This document shows, piece by piece, positions 1 to 7,753 of a DNA stretch of 7,753 nucleotides (positions are counted from its first letter, which is position 1; the number at the start of each line of letters is the position of its first letter). The stretch spans positions 1 to 7,753 of IMG/VR virus record IMGVR_UViG_3300023289_000030; one strand, given 5' to 3'. Below the pieces are notes generated by a model. That model did no database searches. It worked only from the letters and a program-made list of their open reading frames with translations, and was not told the origin of the DNA. The position numbers were made by a program, and so were the translations under genes. Source of the DNA: a virus. Taxonomy: Duplodnaviria > Heunggongvirae > Uroviricota > Caudoviricetes.

Positions 1-312
1 GACAGTTCCGGTGACACGGTCGATGCCATTAACTCTGCGCAGTGGGGCGCGGGTGCTTATGATGCTTATGGGACGGGAATACCGGCGCGGGGATACAAAC
101 CTTATCCGGCGGTAGATCTGGCTCAGTCAAACAACGCCTCCGGTGCCACAGGCCCAAATCCCTTCATGATTAACAAAGCTTCTGCGCCAAAAGTTGATGG
201 TGAGATCAAGGTCTCTTTTGTGAATTCGCCTCCGGGTATGCGGGTTATGGAAACGCGATCCAGCGGTTTTGATGTCAGCCATGATGTTGGCTATACGCGC
301 TTTGGCAGGTAA
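1..312 (+). CDS. 3' end of an upstream tail gene (partial, start outside window); by position probably the tape measure protein
   Basis: Frame 1 is open from base 1 to TAA at 310-312 with no internal stop. Same strand and 60 bp upstream of the N-like gene. Product is inferred from Mu-type gene order only. Confidence 0.5.
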   Translation, partial: DSSGDTVDAINSAQWGAGAYDAYGTGIPARGYKPYPAVDLAQSNNASGATGPNPFMINKASAPKVDGEIKVSFVNSPPGMRVMETRSSGFDVSHDVGYTRFGR

Positions 313-336
313 TGAAAAATTAATCTGTTAATGAGT

Positions 337-357
337 CCCACTCCGGTGGGATTTTTT
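337..357 (+). terminator. Short hairpin plus T-run, possible weak intrinsic terminator or attenuator between the upstream gene and the N-like gene
   Basis: cccac-tccg-gtggg (5-bp stem, 4-nt loop) at 337-350 followed by attttttat. The stem is short, so this is weak at best. Confidence 0.25.
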
Positions 358-372
358 ATGTACGGAGTTTAT

Positions 373-1701
373 ATGACGTGGAAAGACAGACTTCAGGACG
401 CGTCATTTCGAGGTGTGCCGTTTAAGGTTGAAGAAGAAAGTGCGGGAACCGGCCGTCGTGTGGAAACACACGAATATCCGAACCGCGACAAACCCTATAC
501 CGAAGATCTGGGAAAAGTCACTTTCCGCCCGTCCATCACAGCTTATGTGGTGGGAGATGACTGCTTTGACCAGCGCGATCGCCTGATTGAAGCGCTGAAT
601 AAACCCGGTCCCGGCACGCTTGTCCATCCGACTTACGGTGAGCTGAAAGTCTGTGTTGACGGGGAAGTTCGGGTCAGCACATCGAAAAGTGAAGGACGTA
701 TTGTCCGCTTTGACCTGAAGTTTGTCGAAGCGGGAGAACTCTCTTACCCCACATCAGGTGCGGCGACGGCGCAGACGCTGATGTCATCCTGTTCTGCACT
801 GGATGACTGCATCAGTGACAGTTTCAGTGGTTTCAGTATCGATGGCGTGGCAGATTTTGTGCAGAACGACGTCGTCGGTAATGCCGGCACAATGCTTGGG
901 TATATTTCTGATGCGATGAAAGTGGTGGATTCTGCCGTATCGGATGCCGCCAGGCTGTTGCAGGGGGATATCTCGGTACTTCTGCCGCCGCCATCGTCAG
1001 GCAAAAATTTCGTTGAGCAGGTGCAGAAAATGTGGCGTACCGGGAAACGCCTTTATGGTAACGCCAGCGACCTGGTCACCATGATCAAAACGCTTTCCGG
1101 TGTCAGCCTCGGCAGCGATCTGCAACCGCGCGGCGTCTGGAAAACGGACAGTAAAACCACCGCCACGGCGACGCAGCAGCGTAACGTGGTTGCCAGCACC
1201 CTTCGTACGACCGCAATCAGCGAAGCGGCGTATGCCGTCACCCGATTGCCTGCGCCAACAACTTCCGCGGTGATGCAGAATGCCGCAGTGGGGCAGGCAA
1301 CAACAGCTGCGCAGAGCACCGGCTGGCCTTCCGTCACGCATCCGGCATTGAACAATGCACCGGCGGTGAAAAACACGGTTGATCTGCCGACGTGGGAAGA
1401 ACTGACTGACATTCGCGACACACTGAATACGGCAATTGATAAGGAGTTGTCCCGTACAACCAGTGATGCGCTGTTTCTGGCGCTGCGCCGGGTGAAAGCA
1501 GATCTGAATGCGGATATCAACACGCGCCTTGAACAGTCTGCACGGATCATTCAGCGCACGCCGGATGAGGTTTTACCCGCGCTGGTGCTGGCGGCGACCT
1601 GGTTTGATAACGCGGCGCGTGACGCGGACATTATCCGGCGTAATGCCATTACGCATCCCGGCTTTGTGCCGGTGATCCCTCTGAAGGTGCCAGTGCAATG
1701 A
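373..1701 (+). CDS. DNA circularization protein (phage Mu N / gp43-like)
   Basis: Long ORF 331-1701. N-terminus MTWKDRLQDASFRGVPFKVEE matches the conserved start of Mu N-type proteins as I recall it. GGAG at 362-365 sits 7 nt before the ATG at 373, so I prefer 373 over the ATGs at 331 and 358. Stop overlaps the next start (ATGA at 1698-1701). Confidence 0.8.
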   Translation: MTWKDRLQDASFRGVPFKVEEESAGTGRRVETHEYPNRDKPYTEDLGKVTFRPSITAYVVGDDCFDQRDRLIEALNKPGPGTLVHPTYGELKVCVDGEVRVSTSKSEGRIVRFDLKFVEAGELSYPTSGAATAQTLMSSCSALDDCISDSFSGFSIDGVADFVQNDVVGNAGTMLGYISDAMKVVDSAVSDAARLLQGDISVLLPPPSSGKNFVEQVQKMWRTGKRLYGNASDLVTMIKTLSGVSLGSDLQPRGVWKTDSKTTATATQQRNVVASTLRTTAISEAAYAVTRLPAPTTSAVMQNAAVGQATTAAQSTGWPSVTHPALNNAPAVKNTVDLPTWEELTDIRDTLNTAIDKELSRTTSDALFLALRRVKADLNADINTRLEQSARIIQRTPDEVLPALVLAATWFDNAARDADIIRRNAITHPGFVPVIPLKVPVQ

Positions 1702-2777
1702 ACGATAACGTCACGCTACGGGTAAATGGCCGGGAGTGGAATGGCTGGACATCGGTGCGCATCGGTGCCGGTGTTGAACGACTGGCGCGGGATTTCAGTG
1801 TGGAGATCACCCGCCAGTGGCCGGGAGATGAGGGTATCACCACGCTTCAGCCGCGCATTAAAAATGGTTCAAAAGTGGAAGTGCTGATTGGTGATGAGCT
1901 GGTGATCACCGGCTGGGTGGAGGCGACCCCCGTTCATTACGATGCCCGTTCGGTCAGCACCGGTATTGCCGGACGTAGTCTGACTGCTGACCTGATTGAC
2001 TGTGCAGCCGAACCGACACAGTTTAACGGACGATCGCTGGTACAGATTGCGCAGGCGCTTGCTGCGCCTTTCGGCATTGAGGTGGTGAACAGCGATGCGC
2101 CGTCGGGTGTTATTCCGGATGTCCAGCCTGATCACGGTGAAACGGTGATCGAGGTGATCAACAAAATACTCGGTCAGCAGCAGGCGCTGGCTTATGACGA
2201 CCCGCACGGCAGGCTGGTGATTGGTGGTATTGGCTCAACGCGGGCACATACCGCGCTGGTACTTGGGGAAAACATCCTTTCCTGTGATACGGAGAAGAGT
2301 ATCCGGGAGCGGTTTTCAGTTTACCAGGTGGCGGGGCAGCGTGCCGGAAACGACGATGATTTCGGTGAGACCACCACCACCGCGCTGCGGGCCCGCACAG
2401 AGGACGCATTTATTGCCCGTTACCGTCCGATGTATATCAGGCAGACAGGGCAGGCCACGGGGGCAGGCTGTATTGCGCGTGCTGACTTTGAAGCCCGACA
2501 ACGGGCGGCGCGGACGGATGAAACCACCTATGTGGTGCAGGGCTGGCGACAGGGTAACGGTACGCTGTGGCAGCCCAACCAGCGGGTGATTGTCTTTGAT
2601 CCGGTCTGTGGTTTTGACAATACCGAACTGCTTGTTTCGGAAGTCACGTTTACTCAGGACCAGAACGGCACCCTGACGGAAATCCGTGTCGGCCCGCCTG
2701 ATGCTTATCTGCCTGAACCTGAAGACCCCGGCGCGCGGAAAAAGAAAAAAGCCAGAGTACAGGAGGACCCGTTCTGA
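1698..2777 (+). CDS. Baseplate hub / tail protein (Mu P / gp44-like, phage late control D family)
   Basis: 359-aa ORF translationally coupled to the N-like gene by an ATGA overlap. Size and position match the Mu-type hub protein. Family assignment is from recall. Confidence 0.75.
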   Translation: MNDNVTLRVNGREWNGWTSVRIGAGVERLARDFSVEITRQWPGDEGITTLQPRIKNGSKVEVLIGDELVITGWVEATPVHYDARSVSTGIAGRSLTADLIDCAAEPTQFNGRSLVQIAQALAAPFGIEVVNSDAPSGVIPDVQPDHGETVIEVINKILGQQQALAYDDPHGRLVIGGIGSTRAHTALVLGENILSCDTEKSIRERFSVYQVAGQRAGNDDDFGETTTTALRARTEDAFIARYRPMYIRQTGQATGAGCIARADFEARQRAARTDETTYVVQGWRQGNGTLWQPNQRVIVFDPVCGFDNTELLVSEVTFTQDQNGTLTEIRVGPPDAYLPEPEDPGARKKKKARVQEDPF

Positions 2778-3325
2778 TGAGGACGATTGAAGCCATGCAG
2801 CGACAACTTCTCGGCCTGATTGGGCGGGCAGTGGTGAAAAGCATCAGTGCCGCCACGAAATGTCAGACCGTGGATGTGTCCCTGATTGCCGGTGAACCCA
2901 AAGCCGGGGTTGAACATCTTGAACCCTACGGTTTTACCGCAAGGGCAAACAGCGGTGCGGAAGCGGTGGTGTTGTTTCCGGATGGCGACCGTTCTCATGC
3001 GGTGGTTGTTACGGTGTCGGACCGGCGCTACCGCCTGAAAGGGCTGCAGACGGGTGAGGTGGCTGTCTATGACGATCAGGGGCAGTCTGTGACGCTGACC
3101 CGGGAGGGGATCGTGGTGGACGGTGCAGGTAAAACGATCACGTTTCGCAATGCGCCCAGAGCACGTTTTGAAATGGACCTGGAAGTGACCGGACAGGTGA
3201 AAGACCTGTGCGACTCCGGCGGTACCACCATGTCAGCGATGCGGCTTGCCTATAACGGGCATCGTCACAGAGAGAACGGTCAGGGCAGTAACACCGACAA
3301 ACCTGATAAAGCGATGGAGGCATGA
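2777..3325 (+). CDS. Baseplate spike / assembly protein V-like (Mu gp45-like)
   Basis: 182-aa ORF. AGGAGG at 2761-2766 lies 10 nt before the ATG at 2777, which overlaps the upstream TGA by 1 nt. Size and position fit the small spike protein of Mu/P2-type baseplates. Confidence 0.7.
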   Translation: MRTIEAMQRQLLGLIGRAVVKSISAATKCQTVDVSLIAGEPKAGVEHLEPYGFTARANSGAEAVVLFPDGDRSHAVVVTVSDRRYRLKGLQTGEVAVYDDQGQSVTLTREGIVVDGAGKTITFRNAPRARFEMDLEVTGQVKDLCDSGGTTMSAMRLAYNGHRHRENGQGSNTDKPDKAMEA

Positions 3326-3750
3326 TGGAACTGTGGCTGACGGTGAACGGTAAACGCACCTGCGCCAGCGCACAGCTGGATCCGCTGACCCGCGCCGTGG
3401 TGATTTCCCTGTTTACCTGGCGGCGGGCGGAGCCTGATGACAACGCCGATGTCCCGATGGGATGGTGGGGGGATACCTGGCCTGCGGTACAGAATGACCG
3501 TTACGGCTCCCGACTGTGGCTGCTTCAGCGCAGCAAACTGACCAATCAGCTGGTGCAGACGGTAAGGGGGTATATCCGCGAATGCCTGCAATGGATGATT
3601 GATGACGGCGTGGTGTCCCGTATTGATCTGGATATCCGCCGCACCGGGATTAATGAACTGGGTAACAGTATCACTCTCTGGCGTCGTGACGGACCGGTAA
3701 TGATTTCTTTTGATGATCTGTGGAGTGCGATAACGCATGGCGGACAGTGA
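3322..3750 (+). CDS. Baseplate wedge protein, GP46 / gp25-like family (Mu gp46-like)
   Basis: 142-aa ORF. GGAGG precedes the ATG at 3322, which overlaps the upstream stop (ATGA). Size and position are typical of the gp25/W-like protein. Confidence 0.7.
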   Translation: MMELWLTVNGKRTCASAQLDPLTRAVVISLFTWRRAEPDDNADVPMGWWGDTWPAVQNDRYGSRLWLLQRSKLTNQLVQTVRGYIRECLQWMIDDGVVSRIDLDIRRTGINELGNSITLWRRDGPVMISFDDLWSAITHGGQ

Positions 3751-4795
3751 ATTTCAGCGCCCGACGCTGGCAGAAAATATCAGTATGCTCCGTAACGATT
3801 TATTCGCCAGGCTGGACGTCAGCGACACGCTCCGGCGCATGGATGAAGACGTGCGGGCAAAGGTGTATGCGGCGGCGCTGCATACGGTTTACGGTTACAT
3901 CGATTATCTGGCAATGAACATGCTGCCTGACCTGTGCGATGAGTCCTGGCTGGCGCGACATGCTGCGATGAAACGGTGTCCGCGCAAGGGGGCCACGGCT
4001 GCCAGCGGGGATATGCGCTGGGAAGGTGTCAGCGATGGCCTGAAGGTGACCGCCGGGAGTGTTATTCAGCGCGATGACCTGGTGCAGTACACGACAACTG
4101 ACGATGCAACCAGCTCCGGTGGTGTCCTGCGCGTGCCGATCGCCTGCTCAAGTGCAGGTGCGGTCGGTAACGCTGACGACGGTACGGCATTAATCCTGGT
4201 CACGCCGGTGAATGGTCTGCCGTCTTCCGGTGTGGCTGACACCCTTACAGGCGGATTTGATACTGAAGAGCTGGAAACGTGGCGCGCCCGCGTCATTGAG
4301 CGGTATTACTGGACGCCTCAGGGCGGGGCTGACGGGGACTATGTCGTCTGGGCTAAAGAAGTGCCCGGCATTACCCGCGCATGGACATACCGTCACTGGA
4401 TGGGAACGGGAACTGTCGGTGTGATGATTGCCAGCAGTGACCTGATTAATCCCATTCCGGAAGAATCAACGGAAACGGCAGCAAGACAACATATCGGGCC
4501 ACTGGCCCCGGTGGCAGGCTCTGATTTGTATGTATTCAGGCCGGTGGCACATACGGTGGATTTTCATATCCGTGTGACGCCGGATACACCGGAAATACGA
4601 GCCGCCATCACCGCGGAGTTGCGTTCGTTCCTGCTGCGTGATGGTTATCCGCAGGGAGAACTGAAGGTGTCACGTATCAGTGAAGCGATTTCCGGTGCGA
4701 ACGGGGAATACAGCCATCAGTTGCTTGCCCCGGCGGACAATATCTCCATTGCAAAAAATGAGCTGGCAGTTCTGGGGACGATTTCATGGACGTGA
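3737..4795 (+). CDS. Baseplate J-like wedge protein (Mu gp47 / P2 gpJ family)
   Basis: 352-aa ORF whose start overlaps the previous gene by 14 nt. Size and position fit the J family. Confidence 0.8.
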
Positions 4796-5370
4796 CAAAC
4801 GATGATTATATCCGTCTGTTGTCGGCACTGTTGCCGCCCGGTCCGGCGTGGTCAGTCAGCGATCCGGCGATTGCCGGTGCGGCACCGTCATTAACCCGCG
4901 TTCATCAGCGTGCGGATGCCCTGATGCGGGAGCTGGATCCGCGCACCACCACTGAACTGATAAACCGCTGGGAGCGTCTGTGCGGTCTGCCGGATGAATG
5001 TATTCCCGCAGGGACACAGACCCTTCGTCAGCGTCAGCAACGGCTGGATGCGAAGGTTAACCTGGCGGGCAGCATCAACGAGAATTTTTATCTTGCACAG
5101 CTTGCTGCCCTGGGCAGACCAGATGCCAACATCACGCGATACGACAAAAGCACGTTCACCTGCTCATCGGCCTGTACTGACGCGGTGAATGCGCCGGAAT
5201 GGCGGTATTACTGGCAGGTCAACATGCCAGCTGCCACCAACACCACCTGGATGACATGTGGCGATCCCTGTGATTCCGCACTGCGTATCTGGGGCGACAC
5301 CGTTGTCGAGTGTGTGCTTAACAAACTCTGCCCGTCGCATACCTACGTAATTTTTAAATATCCGGAGTAA
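4786..5370 (+). CDS. Baseplate wedge / tail protein, YmfQ-like (Mu gp48 / P2 gpI-like, DUF2313)
   Basis: 194-aa ORF overlapping the J-like gene by 10 nt. It sits directly before the tail-fibre gene, as gp48/YmfQ does in Mu and e14-type modules. Confidence 0.75.
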
Positions 5371-5373
5371 TCC

Positions 5374-6024
5374 ATGCATCGTATAGACACGAAAACCGCG
5401 CAGAAGGATAAGTTCGGCGCGGGTAAGAACGGTTTTACCCGTGGTAACCCCCAGACCGGCACGCCTGCCACCGATCTGGATGATGACTACTTTGACATGT
5501 TGCAGGAGGAGCTTTGCAGCGTGGTGGAGGCATCCGGTGCCAGCCTGGAGAAGGGGCGGCACGACCAGTTACTTACCGCACTTCGTGCGTTGCTGTTAAG
5601 CCGCAAGAATCCGTTTGGTGATATCAAATCGGACGGCACGGTGAAAACGGCTCTCGAAAACCTTGGTTTGGGAGAAGCGGCGAAAAGGGATGTGGGCACA
5701 GGAGAAAATCAGATACCGGATATGTCAGCCTGGAAAAGAAATCCGAGTTCTAATCGCTGGAGAAAATTGCCTGATGGAACCATCATTCAAATGGGAATAT
5801 CAGCATCAGGGCCATTAGGCTCACCTGTAAATATCACCCTGCCGATATCTTTCAGCAATACCAATTATTGTGTTGTTGCATCGTACGATAATGCACGGTC
5901 AGGTGTGTCAACAATGGTTAGTTTTGCAGCGTTACCTGTTTCACCATCGCAATTTTCCCTGATGTCATCTGTGACTGAGCAAGGAATAAATCCTTTTGCT
6001 TACTGGATTGCTTTTGGAGATTAA
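5374..6024 (+). CDS. Tail fibre protein: constant N-terminal part (to about 5664) plus variable C-terminal receptor-binding part in the current orientation (e14 StfP-like)
   Basis: 216-aa ORF with GGAG 7 nt before the ATG. N-terminus [33 protein letters not shown] is a typical conserved tail-fibre N-terminus. A crossover site lies inside the gene at 5651-5676, and base composition drops sharply after it. Confidence 0.85.
5651..5676. repeat. Left crossover site of the invertible segment (26 bp, hix/gix/pix-like), inside the tail-fibre gene
   Basis: ctctcgaaaacc-tt-ggtttgggagaa: two imperfect 12-bp half-sites around a 2-bp core. It matches the reverse complement of 7516-7541 at 23 of 26 positions and resembles hixL (TTCTTGAAAACCAAGGTTTTTGATAA) as recalled. 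Confidence 0.75.
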
Positions 6025-6027
6025 TAA

Positions 6028-6447
6028 ATGGATAGATACTTCTATTCACAAAAAGAAAATGGTTTTTTTACCGATTTAAATAAAGCACCTTCAGATGCTG
6101 TTGAGATAACCACGGATGAATGGCTGTTACTACTGGATGGTCAGGATAATGGCATGAAAATAGTCAGCAATCAGGAGGGATATCCGGTTTTGACAGAGCA
6201 ACCACCTTTATCAAAAGAAAACCTTATTGCATTGGCGGATTTGAAAAAAAGAAAACTTATTAATGAAGCCAACGAGCACATGAACAGCAGACAATGGCCA
6301 GGTAAAGCGGCGATTGGTCGCCTGAAAGGTGAGGAACTGGCACAATATAATTTATGGCTGGATTATCTGGACGCACTGGAACTGGTTGATCCCTCCAGTG
6401 CTCCAGATATTGAATGGCCTACGCCTCCGGCAGTTCAGGCCAGATGA
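6028..6447 (+). CDS. Tail fibre assembly chaperone (Tfa / Mu U-like), cognate to the currently expressed fibre C-terminus
   Basis: 139-aa ORF starting 3 nt after the fibre stop, with GGAG upstream. C-terminal motif LWLDYLDALELVDPSSAPDIEWPTPP is characteristic of tail fibre assembly proteins. Confidence 0.85.
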   Translation: MDRYFYSQKENGFFTDLNKAPSDAVEITTDEWLLLLDGQDNGMKIVSNQEGYPVLTEQPPLSKENLIALADLKKRKLINEANEHMNSRQWPGKAAIGRLKGEELAQYNLWLDYLDALELVDPSSAPDIEWPTPPAVQAR

Positions 6448-7024
6448 CATCCGGTGCGGTGCTGGTATCTGTTGCCGTCACCGCGTCAATGTAATCCAGC
6501 GCAGCGTTAAGTCGGGCGGTTTCTGCCTGCGTCAGATTCCGTCCGGCCTGTAATTTCAGTTGAATCAGACTGATAGAAGCCATTGCTGTATCAATCAGCG
6601 ACTGGCGCTGTGCTTCTGCTGCATCTACTACGGCGCTATGCTGTGCCTCGGTATCCGTCACCCATTTCTCACCATCCCATTTATCGTATGGCGTTAACGG
6701 GGCGATAGTGGTTGTATTTTCAGGGTAATCACCCGGAACTGTGATTTCTTTGGTATCTCCCGTTTCGGTACTATAGACAACTTCACCGCGATGGTCTGGC
6801 ACATATTCCCATGAATTTAAATCTACAGAGCGACAGATTGCATAACCAGCTTTATGTGTACCTGGTGCATCCAGACAGGAACATGCCGGGATACCGACGC
6901 CGACAGCGAGATATTCAGTTGATGTAGAAATATATTCCCGCGTTTCACCATCATAATTATAAACGGTAATATCTCCCACTTTTATGGCAATGAGTTCGCT
7001 ATTTAATACAGCTTTATTCATCAT
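6419..7024 (-). CDS. Alternative tail fibre assembly chaperone (Tfa', e14 TfaE-like), silent orientation
   Basis: 201-aa minus-strand ORF starting MMNKAVLNSELIAIKVGDITVYNYDGETREY, a typical Tfa N-terminus. Its C-terminus LDYIDAVTATDTSTAPDVIWPELP parallels the + strand chaperone. Its start overlaps the stop of the upstream minus-strand fibre segment (ATGA). Confidence 0.85.
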   Translation of the reverse strand: MMNKAVLNSELIAIKVGDITVYNYDGETREYISTSTEYLAVGVGIPACSCLDAPGTHKAGYAICRSVDLNSWEYVPDHRGEVVYSTETGDTKEITVPGDYPENTTTIAPLTPYDKWDGEKWVTDTEAQHSAVVDAAEAQRQSLIDTAMASISLIQLKLQAGRNLTQAETARLNAALDYIDAVTATDTSTAPDVIWPELPEA

Positions 7025-7541
7025 GCGGCCCTCACAATATAATTAAAAGCGATGTTACGAGGACGAGTTTCTGTACCTACATTTTCACTAATTTCACCAT
7101 AACGTTTAACACTACGAGAGCTAATAGCTCGTAGTGAGGAAGGCACCTTAAGACCGGGTTCGTCCGTTTTAACTATTCCCCCGTCACCGTATGTAGCCAG
7201 TATTCCTGGGTTTACGCCTTCCCGTGCACTTCCTGCGGCGAGTCCGTCCCCTGTCCATAATTCCATATAGTGTGCATGGTCCAAAATTGTGTGTGGCTGC
7301 CAATTAAGCAAAGTACGACCAGAATCAATCCCGCGACCGTCATCCCAGCCACGAATAAATTCACCGCGTAAATCAGGCAATTTATTGGTCGGGTAAGCCT
7401 TTGCCAGTTCCGGGTATTCTTCAGCAGAAAAAGCCGCACCATTGCATTTCAGCCAGCCTGTTGGCGGAGTGGCTGAAGGCCACGGAACAGGCACCCCAAC
7501 CGGTAATGCAGAGCCTTCTCCCAAACCAACGTTTTTGAGAA
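7021..7541 (-). CDS. Alternative tail fibre C-terminal variable segment (Sv', e14 StfE-like); promoterless and startless, expressed only after inversion fuses it to the constant fibre N-terminus
   Basis: Minus-strand frame open from the right crossover site to TGA at 7021. Contains WLKCNGAAFSAEEYPELAKAYP, a motif typical of tail-fibre C-terminal domains. No credible own start; the track's TTG at 7596 lies outside the invertible segment. Confidence 0.8.
7516..7541. repeat. Right crossover site of the invertible segment (26 bp, hix/gix/pix-like)
   Basis: ttctcccaaacc-aa-cgtttttgagaa. Inverted partner of 5651-5676 (23 of 26 positions; core AA here, TT at the left site). Lies 55 bp upstream of the invertase start. 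Confidence 0.75.
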
Positions 7542-7595
7542 TGACCATTCTGCTCACTAGTGGCATGCTTTCTGCTTTTTGCAGGGGATAAAACA

Positions 7596-7753
7596 ATGCT
7601 TATTGGTTATGTGAGAGTGTCAACAAATGACCAGAACACCGCATTACAGAGAAATGCGCTCGATAGCGCAGGATGTGAACTGATTTTTGAAGATAAGATA
7701 AGCGGAAAGACCTCGGAGAGGCCGGGGCTCAAAAAGGTACTCCGTATCTTGTC
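7596..7753 (+). CDS. pin: Serine DNA invertase, Gin/Pin/Hin/Cin family (5' partial, continues beyond window)
   Basis: N-terminus MLIGYVRVSTNDQNTALQRNALDSAGCELIFEDKISGKTSERPGLKK is near-identical in pattern to Gin/Pin N-termini as recalled, including the catalytic Ser in VRVSTNDQ. AGGGGA lies 7 nt before the ATG. The symbol pin is by analogy to e14; it could equally be annotated gin or cin. Confidence 0.9.
   Translation, partial: MLIGYVRVSTNDQNTALQRNALDSAGCELIFEDKISGKTSERPGLKKVLRIL

What the first reader, a model, noticed from the sequence alone, without database searches (positions are those of the whole stretch)
5651..5676. Crossover site sits inside the fibre ORF and keeps the reading frame in both orientations
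At the left site the + strand encodes ...ALE-N-L-G-L-G-E, with the core TT as bases 2-3 of the Leu codon CTT. At the right site the - strand encodes ...K-N-V-G-L-G-E, with the core as bases 2-3 of the Val codon GTT. Recombination at the core therefore joins the constant N-terminus (about 97 aa) in frame to either C-terminus, changing only one residue (Leu or Val) at the junction. This precise phase match is strong internal evidence that these are the true recombination sites.
Basis: seen in the sequence. Interest (0 to 1): 0.55.

Follow-up and report, generated by a model that had tools for sequence, protein, structure and literature searches.

The report
e14-type Pin tail-fibre inversion switch
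This is the well-known Pin (e14 "P segment") DNA-inversion switch of an E. coli prophage: a recombination site inside the tail-fibre gene lets one constant N-terminus be joined in frame to either of two receptor-binding C-termini. It is real but ordinary.

Summary
Window 5651-5676 is a 26-bp site identical (26/26) to the published pixL site of E. coli prophage e14. Its partner at 7516-7541 matches pixR 24/26. The core TT (5663-5664; AA at 7528-7529) is bases 2-3 of Leu97 (CTT) on the left and of a Val codon (GTT) on the right.

That exact 265-aa protein is already in NCBI. Two E. coli assemblies are colinear with the inverted window at 100% and 99.985% identity. Two pairs of sister E. coli genomes differ only by this inversion. 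In each pair the exchange point falls within the 15-nt TTGGTTTGGGAGAAG, whose outer edge is the core.

Mu gix and P1 cix sit in the same codon phase (N/Y-L-G-L-x-E).

One detail is wrong. The first base of the junction codon lies outside the segment, so the expressed fibre keeps Leu97 in both orientations, and Val stays with the unexpressed copy.

The phase match alone does not locate the core. Dyad symmetry and homology do.

Verdict: an already known system, here carrying new variable-cassette alleles. Low interest.

The parts
5374..5664 (+). Constant part (Sc) of the tail-fibre gene, codons 1-97, ending in Leu97 (CTT 5662-5664)
   Evidence: ORF 5374-6024. 96/97 aa identical to the first 97 residues of K-12 e14 StfP/YcfK. 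It follows the Mu gp48-like gene ymfQ at 4786-5370.
5651..5676 (+). Left crossover site (pixL), 12 + 2 + 12 bp: CTCTCGAAAACC TT GGTTTGGGAGAA, core TT at 5663-5664
   Evidence: 26/26 identical to the published pixL (Table 3 of PMC3241671). Half-site symmetry is 9/12 and peaks at this centre.
5665..6024 (+). Variable C-terminus now expressed (Sv, 119 aa, Gp53-like_C domain)
   Evidence: Pfam PF21882, E = 5e-13. Only 38/119 aa identical to the variable part of K-12 StfP, so it is a different cassette allele.
6028..6447 (+). Tail-fibre assembly chaperone that goes with Sv (TfaP-like, 139 aa)
   Evidence: Pfam Caudo_TAP PF02413, E = 3.5e-25. Its start lies 3 nt after the fibre stop.
6419..7024 (-). 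Tail-fibre assembly chaperone that goes with Sv' (TfaE-like, 201 aa)
   Evidence: Pfam Caudo_TAP, E = 2.3e-31. Its start overlaps the Sv' stop (ATGA). It converges on the other tfa gene and overlaps it by 29 nt.
7021..7527 (-). Alternative variable C-terminus, not joined to Sc in this orientation (Sv', 168 aa, phage tail collar domain)
   Evidence: Pfam Collar PF07484, E = 2e-15 on the in silico fusion. Aligns with the T4 gp37 tip, 2xgf, E = 6e-18. 107/168 aa identical to K-12 StfE.
7516..7541 (-). Right crossover site (pixR): TTCTCAAAAACG TT GGTTTGGGAGAA on the - strand, core AA at 7528-7529 on the + strand
   Evidence: 24/26 identical to the published pixR. Half-site symmetry is 9/12 and peaks at this centre.
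7596..7753 (+). 5' end of the serine invertase gene pin (52 codons; the window ends inside the gene)
   Evidence: Pfam Resolvase PF00239, E = 5.5e-13. The motif GYVRVSTNDQ carries the family's catalytic serine. The same 158 nt continue in L010 into a 186-aa Resolvase + HTH_7 protein, 87% identical to K-12 PinE, 83% to P1 Cin and 72% to Mu Gin.
7614..7685 (.). Presumed Fis-dependent recombinational enhancer inside the pin coding sequence (inferred by position and homology only)
   Evidence: Aligns without gaps to the enhancer annotated in P1 cin (NC_005856 31678-31749), 57/72 nt identical. Coding constraint could account for that identity, so this part is an inference.

Best explanation
The window is the tail end of an e14-like (Mu-type baseplate) E. 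coli prophage and carries the Pin 'P segment' switch. It shows the baseplate genes, a short fibre gene, two convergent variable-end/chaperone cassettes, and the first 52 codons of a Hin/Gin/Cin/Pin-family serine invertase gene.

Shown here: the site sequences, their codon phase, the in-frame products, and natural molecules in both orientations.

Inferred from established knowledge of the family: Pin dimers bind the two inverted 26-bp pix sites. They synapse with a Fis-bound enhancer in the 5' part of pin. They cut both strands with a 2-nt stagger at the central TT/AA, rotate one half by 180 degrees and religate. This inverts the 1863 bp between the two cores (5665-7527).

Consequence for the protein: pixL lies inside the fibre gene, and the inner arm of both sites reads (T)T-GGT-TTG-GGA-GAA in the same phase. 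Each orientation therefore fuses the same 97-aa N-terminus (presumably the baseplate attachment part) to a different C-terminus, and places the matching chaperone gene directly downstream.
- Current orientation: Gp53-like end, 216 aa in total.
- Inverted orientation: collar / T4-gp37-like end, 265 aa in total.

The junction peptide ENLGLGE, including Leu97, is the same in both forms. By analogy with Mu and P1, the presumed purpose is to alternate host range.
For: - Anatomy and domains.
- Site identity to the published pixL (26/26) and pixR (24/26).
- In silico inversion gives a 265-aa ORF ending at 7021.
- The exact 265-aa product is in NCBI (EJN9900071.1, ENE0528559.1, HBP4746479.1).
- E. coli contigs L010 and L009 are colinear with the inverted window at 100% (3380 bp) and 99.985% (6813 bp). 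The window as given aligns to them in three pieces that break at the two repeats.
- Sister genomes CX07/CX15 and CH425/CH423 differ only by an exact inversion, with the exchange interval bounded on the outside by the core.
- Both orientations occur among complete E. coli genomes: 21 records match the window orientation and 32 the inverted one at 80% coverage or more.
- Same codon phase and peptide motif at K-12 e14, Mu gixL and P1 cixR.
- Dyad symmetry centred on the core.
- Experiments on K-12 e14, whose repeat TTGGTTTGGGAGAAGG shares its first 15 nt with the window's repeats: the 1797-bp P segment inverts, PinE/PinQ/PinR all invert it, and a strain is reported with the segment locked in one orientation (PMC12529663). 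Both orientations coexist in clonal cultures (PMC4272514).
Against: - Nothing contradicts the explanation.
- Only 52 codons of pin are in the window. Its integrity in this molecule is inferred from L009/L010, which are identical over the shared 158 nt.
- The enhancer and the Fis requirement are inferred by homology, not tested.
- Public data limit the exchange point to a 15-nt interval, not to the dinucleotide itself.
- Related copies (L009, L010, K-12 e14) are decayed prophages, so the switch may no longer serve a viable phage.
Confidence: 0.95

Rival explanations
1. Both junctions are meant to be expressed. The ORF that runs leftwards from a short leader just outside pixR (MPLVSRMVILKNV, ATG near 7566) is translated on its own. 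The switch would then toggle two pairs of proteins. The leader-fused free receptor-binding domain would act in the host, for example by blocking adsorption of other phages, as reported for StfE2 of K-12 e14.
For: - The minus-strand ORF stays open for 13 codons outside the site back to an ATG, and it is in frame in both orientations.
- Annotation pipelines call this gene: 181-182 aa or 126 aa products.
- PMC12529663 reports that plasmid-expressed StfE2 lowers T2 adsorption and that inversion rises during T2 infection.
Against: - The leader is not conserved in sequence: MPLVSRMVILKNV in the window, MMPFACYFFIFINV in K-12. In the P2-like copy an in-frame stop interrupts it.
- An open run of 13-14 codons is expected by chance about half the time.
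- There is no clear Shine-Dalgarno sequence before the ATG in the window, and the scan found no promoter-like site there.
- The 54 bp between pixR (which ends at 7541) and the pin start codon at 7596 must also carry the signals for pin.
- K-12 RefSeq annotates stfE as a pseudogene.
Confidence: 0.15
2. The inversion arises by general (RecA-dependent) homologous recombination between the short inverted repeats, and the neighbouring invertase gene is incidental.
For: Any exchange within the 15 identical nucleotides gives the same product, so the sequence data alone cannot separate the two mechanisms.
Against: - Fifteen identical nucleotides is very short for RecA-dependent exchange (general knowledge).
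- The sites have the 12-2-12 dyad architecture of Din-family sites and are identical or nearly identical to pixL/pixR.
- A Pin-family invertase gene lies 54 bp away.
- In K-12, PinE/PinQ/PinR all invert the segment, and a locked non-inverted state is reported.
- The longer similarity between the two tfa genes (18 nt at 83%) is not used as a junction.
Confidence: 0.02
3. The repeat is only a conserved coding motif (NLGLGE) shared by two diverged fibre genes on opposite strands, and this element does not invert.
For: The motif is conserved at the protein level in Mu and P1 fibres as well.
Against: The inverted form of this very element exists base for base in public assemblies, and isogenic pairs differ only by the inversion.
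Confidence: 0.01

Closest known systems
P segment / Pin system of E. coli K-12 cryptic prophage e14 (ycfK/stfP, tfaP, tfaE, stfE, pinE; Plasterk & van de Putte 1985, as cited in PMC4272514 and PMC12529663)
   Same: - Same gene order and orientation.
- pixL identical 26/26 and pixR 24/26.
- Constant fibre part 96/97 aa identical.
- Invertase 87% identical over the full length taken from L010.
- Same junction codon and phase.
- Same 81-nt spacing from the inner edge of the repeat to the pin ATG.
   Different: - The variable cassettes are different alleles: Sv 38/119 aa and Sv' 107/168 aa identical.
- The segment between the cores is 1863 bp here; K-12's P segment is given as 1797 bp.
- The window keeps a full Mu-type baseplate module upstream, which is truncated in K-12 e14.
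G segment / Gin of phage Mu and C segment / Cin of phage P1
   Same: - 26-bp sites with a 2-bp core inside the S fibre gene.
- The core is bases 2-3 of a Leu codon in QNLGLQE (Mu) and QYLGLRE (P1).
- Sc/Sv/U and Sv'/U' cassette logic.
- An enhancer lies in the 5' part of the invertase gene in P1.
   Different: - The constant parts are much longer: about 170 aa in Mu and about 454 aa in P1, against 97 aa here.
- The Mu core is TC, not TT.
- In P1 cin lies on the other side, with cixL at its 3' end.
Min system of plasmid p15B (multiple inversion)
   Same: The mix sites share the TTCCCC(C/T)AAACC AA CGTTT... half-sites and also shuffle fibre C-termini.
   Different: p15B has six sites and several overlapping segments. 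Here only two sites are found, even with 3 mismatches allowed.

Membership tests
Din (Hin/Gin/Cin/Pin) serine-invertase switches: the recombination site | 26-bp site made of two imperfect 12-bp inverted half-sites (consensus TTC---AAAC-) around a 2-bp core, commonly AA or GA | tested here: met
   Both sites fit 12-2-12 with core AA/TT. Half-site symmetry is 9/12 and peaks at the core. 26/26 and 24/26 identical to the published pixL/pixR.
Din (Hin/Gin/Cin/Pin) serine-invertase switches: the recombination site | Two sites in inverted orientation with identical, non-palindromic core dinucleotides | tested here: met
   Core TT at 5663-5664 on the + strand and TT on the - strand at 7529-7528.
Din (Hin/Gin/Cin/Pin) serine-invertase switches: the recombinase | Adjacent small serine recombinase: N-terminal resolvase catalytic domain with the active-site Ser, and a C-terminal HTH | tested here: met
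   The window encodes 52 aa with a PF00239 hit and GYVRVSTNDQ. The identical 5' end continues in L010 into a 186-aa Resolvase + HTH_7 protein, 87% identical to PinE. The window itself does not contain the 3' part.
Din (Hin/Gin/Cin/Pin) serine-invertase switches: accessory elements | Fis-dependent recombinational enhancer in cis | tested here: inconclusive
   Window 7614-7685 aligns to the annotated P1 cin enhancer at 57/72 nt. The stretch is coding, so the identity does not prove enhancer function. Fis binding cannot be tested with these tools.
Din (Hin/Gin/Cin/Pin) serine-invertase switches: the reaction | The segment actually inverts, with junctions at the sites | tested here: met
   Public contigs are 100% / 99.985% colinear with the in silico inverted window. 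The exact fusion protein is in NCBI. Isogenic pairs differ by an exact inversion. Experiments on the K-12 homologue are reported in PMC12529663 and PMC4272514.
Din (Hin/Gin/Cin/Pin) serine-invertase switches: the reaction | Staggered 2-nt cleavage at the core, with a phosphoserine intermediate | not testable with these tools
   Sequence comparison limits the exchange point to the 15-nt interval TTGGTTTGGGAGAAG, which begins at the core. Biochemical mapping is needed.
Phage tail-fibre host-range switch (Sc/Sv/U type) | The crossover site lies inside the fibre ORF, with one constant N-terminus, two alternative in-frame C-termini, and a tail-fibre assembly gene after each | tested here: met
   Products of 216 aa and 265 aa share residues 1-101. 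They carry Gp53-like_C or Collar domains, and two Caudo_TAP genes follow. Wrong frames stop after 25-50 codons.

The most novel reading that the evidence does not exclude
The pin-proximal junction may also be functional. The short leader ORF outside pixR (ATG near 7566) would be translated, so that each orientation also yields a free, leader-fused receptor-binding domain: collar type now, Gp53-like after inversion. That domain would act in the lysogen as an anti-adsorption decoy, as claimed for StfE2 of K-12 e14. This element carries different cassette alleles, so the set of phages it excludes could differ.
Probability: 0.12. Interest if true: 0.45.

Novelty: already known. Interest (0 to 1): 0.1.

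Why it matters
The finding matters little as a discovery. In-frame crossover sites in tail-fibre genes are the textbook feature of the Gin/Cin/Pin/Min switches, and this left site is base for base the published pixL.

Its practical value is for annotation:
- The two 'phage tail protein' genes here are one gene with two alternative 3' ends.
- The pin-proximal copy lacks its own N-terminus.
- Assemblies of the same strain can legitimately differ in orientation.

The variable cassettes are new alleles (Sv is only 32% identical to K-12 StfP). This illustrates modular exchange of receptor-binding ends at the crossover site, including exchange with P2-like prophages.

Tried and rejected
- Further crossover sites, which would indicate a Min-like multiple-inversion system. 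The 26-nt pattern with up to 3 mismatches finds only the two sites. Rejected.
- Independent expression signals for the pin-proximal ORF. The promoter scan finds nothing near 7541-7600. The leader peptide is not conserved and is interrupted by a stop in the P2-like copy. Kept only as a low-probability rival.
- Reading the primary papers (Plasterk & van de Putte 1985; Mehta et al. 2004). They are not held in the library, so they are cited only through the reference lists of PMC4272514 and PMC12529663.
- Solved structures of the fibre. No solved structure aligns with the constant part (residues 1-81). Only the collar end aligns, with T4 gp37/gp12-type tips. The Gp53-like form gives one weak hit, E = 0.0037.
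- Not attempted, because the verdict did not need them: structure prediction, large protein-database searches, and collection-wide scans for the site.

Full report
**What is in the window**

The ORF list and Pfam scans show a phage tail module. It runs through the baseplate genes to a Mu gp48-like gene (4786-5370, PF10076). After it come:
- a short fibre gene (5374-6024, +, 216 aa, Gp53-like_C at its C-terminus);
- a tail-fibre assembly gene (6028-6447, +, Caudo_TAP);
- a convergent second assembly gene (6419-7024, -, Caudo_TAP);
- a minus-strand ORF with a phage tail collar domain (7021 up to about 7530);
- the first 52 codons of a resolvase-family serine recombinase (7596-7753, +, PF00239, motif GYVRVSTNDQ).

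**Check of the observation**

- The + strand encodes ...ALENLGLGE. The core TT at 5663-5664 is bases 2-3 of CTT, codon 97 of the fibre ORF.
- The - strand at the right site encodes ...KNVGLGE. The core (AA at 7528-7529 on the + strand) is bases 2-3 of GTT.
- The repeat 5652-5677 / 7515-7540 is the longest inverted repeat in the window: 26 nt, 92% complementary.
- A 26-nt site pattern with up to three mismatches matches only 5651-5676 and 7516-7541. None of 200 shuffles gave any match.

I inverted the segment in silico. Translating from 5374 gives one 265-aa ORF whose stop maps to original coordinate 7021.

As an internal control, the correct frame downstream of the junction stays open for 119 codons in the current orientation and 168 in the inverted one. 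The other four frames hit a stop after 25-50 codons.

**Natural inverted molecules**

- An exact-sequence look-up finds the predicted 265-aa fusion in NCBI as an E. coli tail fibre protein: EJN9900071.1, ENE0528559.1 and HBP4746479.1.
- Two contigs that encode it (L009, GCA_021702355.1; L010, GCA_040038045.1) are colinear with the in silico inverted window. L009 is 99.985% identical over 6813 bp and L010 is 100% identical over 3380 bp. The window as given aligns to them in three pieces that break at the two repeats.
- Among complete E. coli genomes, 21 records match the window orientation and 32 the inverted orientation at 80% coverage or more.
- Two pairs of near-identical sister genomes, CX07/CX15 and CH425/CH423, are identical over about 5 kb except for an exact inversion. 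The exchange point can be placed anywhere within TTGGTTTGGGAGAAG but no further out than the first T of the core.

**Identity of the system**

- The region corresponds gene for gene to ymfQ-ycfK(stfP)-tfaP-tfaE-stfE-pinE of the K-12 cryptic prophage e14.
- The left site is 26/26 identical to the published pixL (TTCTCCCAAACC AA GGTTTTCGAGAG). The right site is 24/26 identical to pixR (Table 3 of PMC3241671).
- The constant 97 residues are 96/97 identical to K-12 StfP. The variable parts are different alleles: Sv 38/119 and Sv' 107/168 identical.
- The window's 158 nt of pin are identical to L010. There the gene is complete: 186 aa, Resolvase + HTH_7, 87% identical to PinE, 83% to P1 Cin and 72% to Mu Gin.
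- Experiments on the K-12 locus show inversion of the 1797-bp P segment at the repeats TTGGTTTGGGAGAAGG. PinE, PinQ and PinR all invert it, a strain is reported with the segment locked in one orientation, and the two orientations coexist in cultures (PMC12529663; PMC4272514).

**Codon phase is a family trait**

In K-12 e14, Mu (gixL) and P1 (cixR) the core dinucleotide is also bases 2-3 of a Leu codon. The peptides are ENLGLGE, QNLGLQE and QYLGLRE. The P2-like prophage of CH425/CH423 carries the same cassette behind a constant part of about 203 aa, read from the coordinates.

1. The junction residue does not alternate between Leu and Val. The first base of the junction codon (C at 5662, G on the pin side) lies outside the segment, and the core is TT at both sites. 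The fibre joined to the constant part therefore always has Leu97, and Val stays with the pin-proximal copy. The NCBI protein confirms ...ENLGLGEGSAL....
2. The phase match shows that both cassettes are built to be fused to the same N-terminus through the repeat, but it does not locate the core. Any exchange within the 15 shared nucleotides gives the same product. The core assignment rests on the dyad symmetry of each site, which is 9/12 at this centre and no more than 6/12 at neighbouring centres. It also rests on homology with the annotated cix crossover points and the published pix sites.

**Mechanism**

Shown here: the sites, their phase, both products, and natural molecules in both orientations.

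Inferred from established knowledge of Hin/Gin/Cin/Pin invertases: dimers on each site, a Fis-bound enhancer, a 2-nt staggered double-strand cut at the core, 180-degree subunit rotation and religation.

The enhancer is placed at 7614-7685 only by gap-free alignment to the annotated P1 cin enhancer, 57/72 nt. Coding constraint could explain that identity.

**Rival readings**

- Independent translation of the pin-proximal ORF. This is the StfE/StfE2 idea of PMC12529663. It cannot be excluded but has weak support here. The 13-codon leader is not conserved, the P2-like copy has an in-frame stop in it, and I saw no clear ribosome-binding site or promoter match.
- RecA-dependent exchange between the repeats, and a non-inverting shared coding motif. 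Both are contradicted by the site architecture and by the natural and experimental inversions.

**Verdict**

The feature is an already known system, the e14-type Pin switch, here with new variable-cassette alleles. Interest is low.

Noticed in passing
L005 3440-3639 and L006 3440-3639 (E. coli CH425 / CH423): In a P2-like prophage the same invertible cassette sits next to an invertase annotated as a frameshifted, truncated 200-nt pseudogene. Even so, the two sister isolates differ by an exact inversion. This implies inversion in trans by another Pin-type invertase in the genome.
   Followed up: partly
L009 1-1567 and L010 1-5000, compared with window 1-4373: The two contigs that carry the inverted form of this element lack different upstream parts of the window: L009 lacks window 1-940 and L010 lacks everything before 4374. 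These copies are decaying prophages, like e14.
   Followed up: partly
window 7541-7596, - strand: A short leader ORF (MPLVSRMVILKNV) runs into pixR in frame, and annotation pipelines use it to call a separate 'phage tail protein'. Its sequence is not conserved between relatives, and the P2-like copy has an in-frame stop in it. The 81-nt spacing to the pin ATG and a TGGCAT motif are conserved, which suggests regulatory rather than coding constraint.
   Followed up: partly
window 6419-6447; also 6357-6374 / 6483-6500: The two tail-fibre assembly genes converge and overlap by 29 nt at their 3' ends. An 18-nt imperfect inverted repeat reflects their homologous C-terminal ends (LDYLDAL / LDYIDAV).
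   Followed up: no
window 7021-7527, - strand: The collar-type variable end aligns with the T4 gp37 receptor-binding tip (PDB 2xgf, E = 6e-18). The alignment includes an H-x-H motif (DHAHY against EHSHY) and the C-terminal NIAFNYIVR.
   Followed up: partly
whole window: The 181-aa pin-proximal ORF product is recorded on a single JGI/IMG contig of exactly 7753 bp, so the window is apparently a complete short metagenome or viral contig of E. coli origin. The closest complete genome is 97% identical over the whole length.
   Followed up: no
window 7655-7670, - strand: A terminator-like hairpin lies on the minus strand inside the pin coding sequence. The region has 6 terminator-like sites, against 2.1 +/- 1.6 in shuffles.
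   Followed up: no
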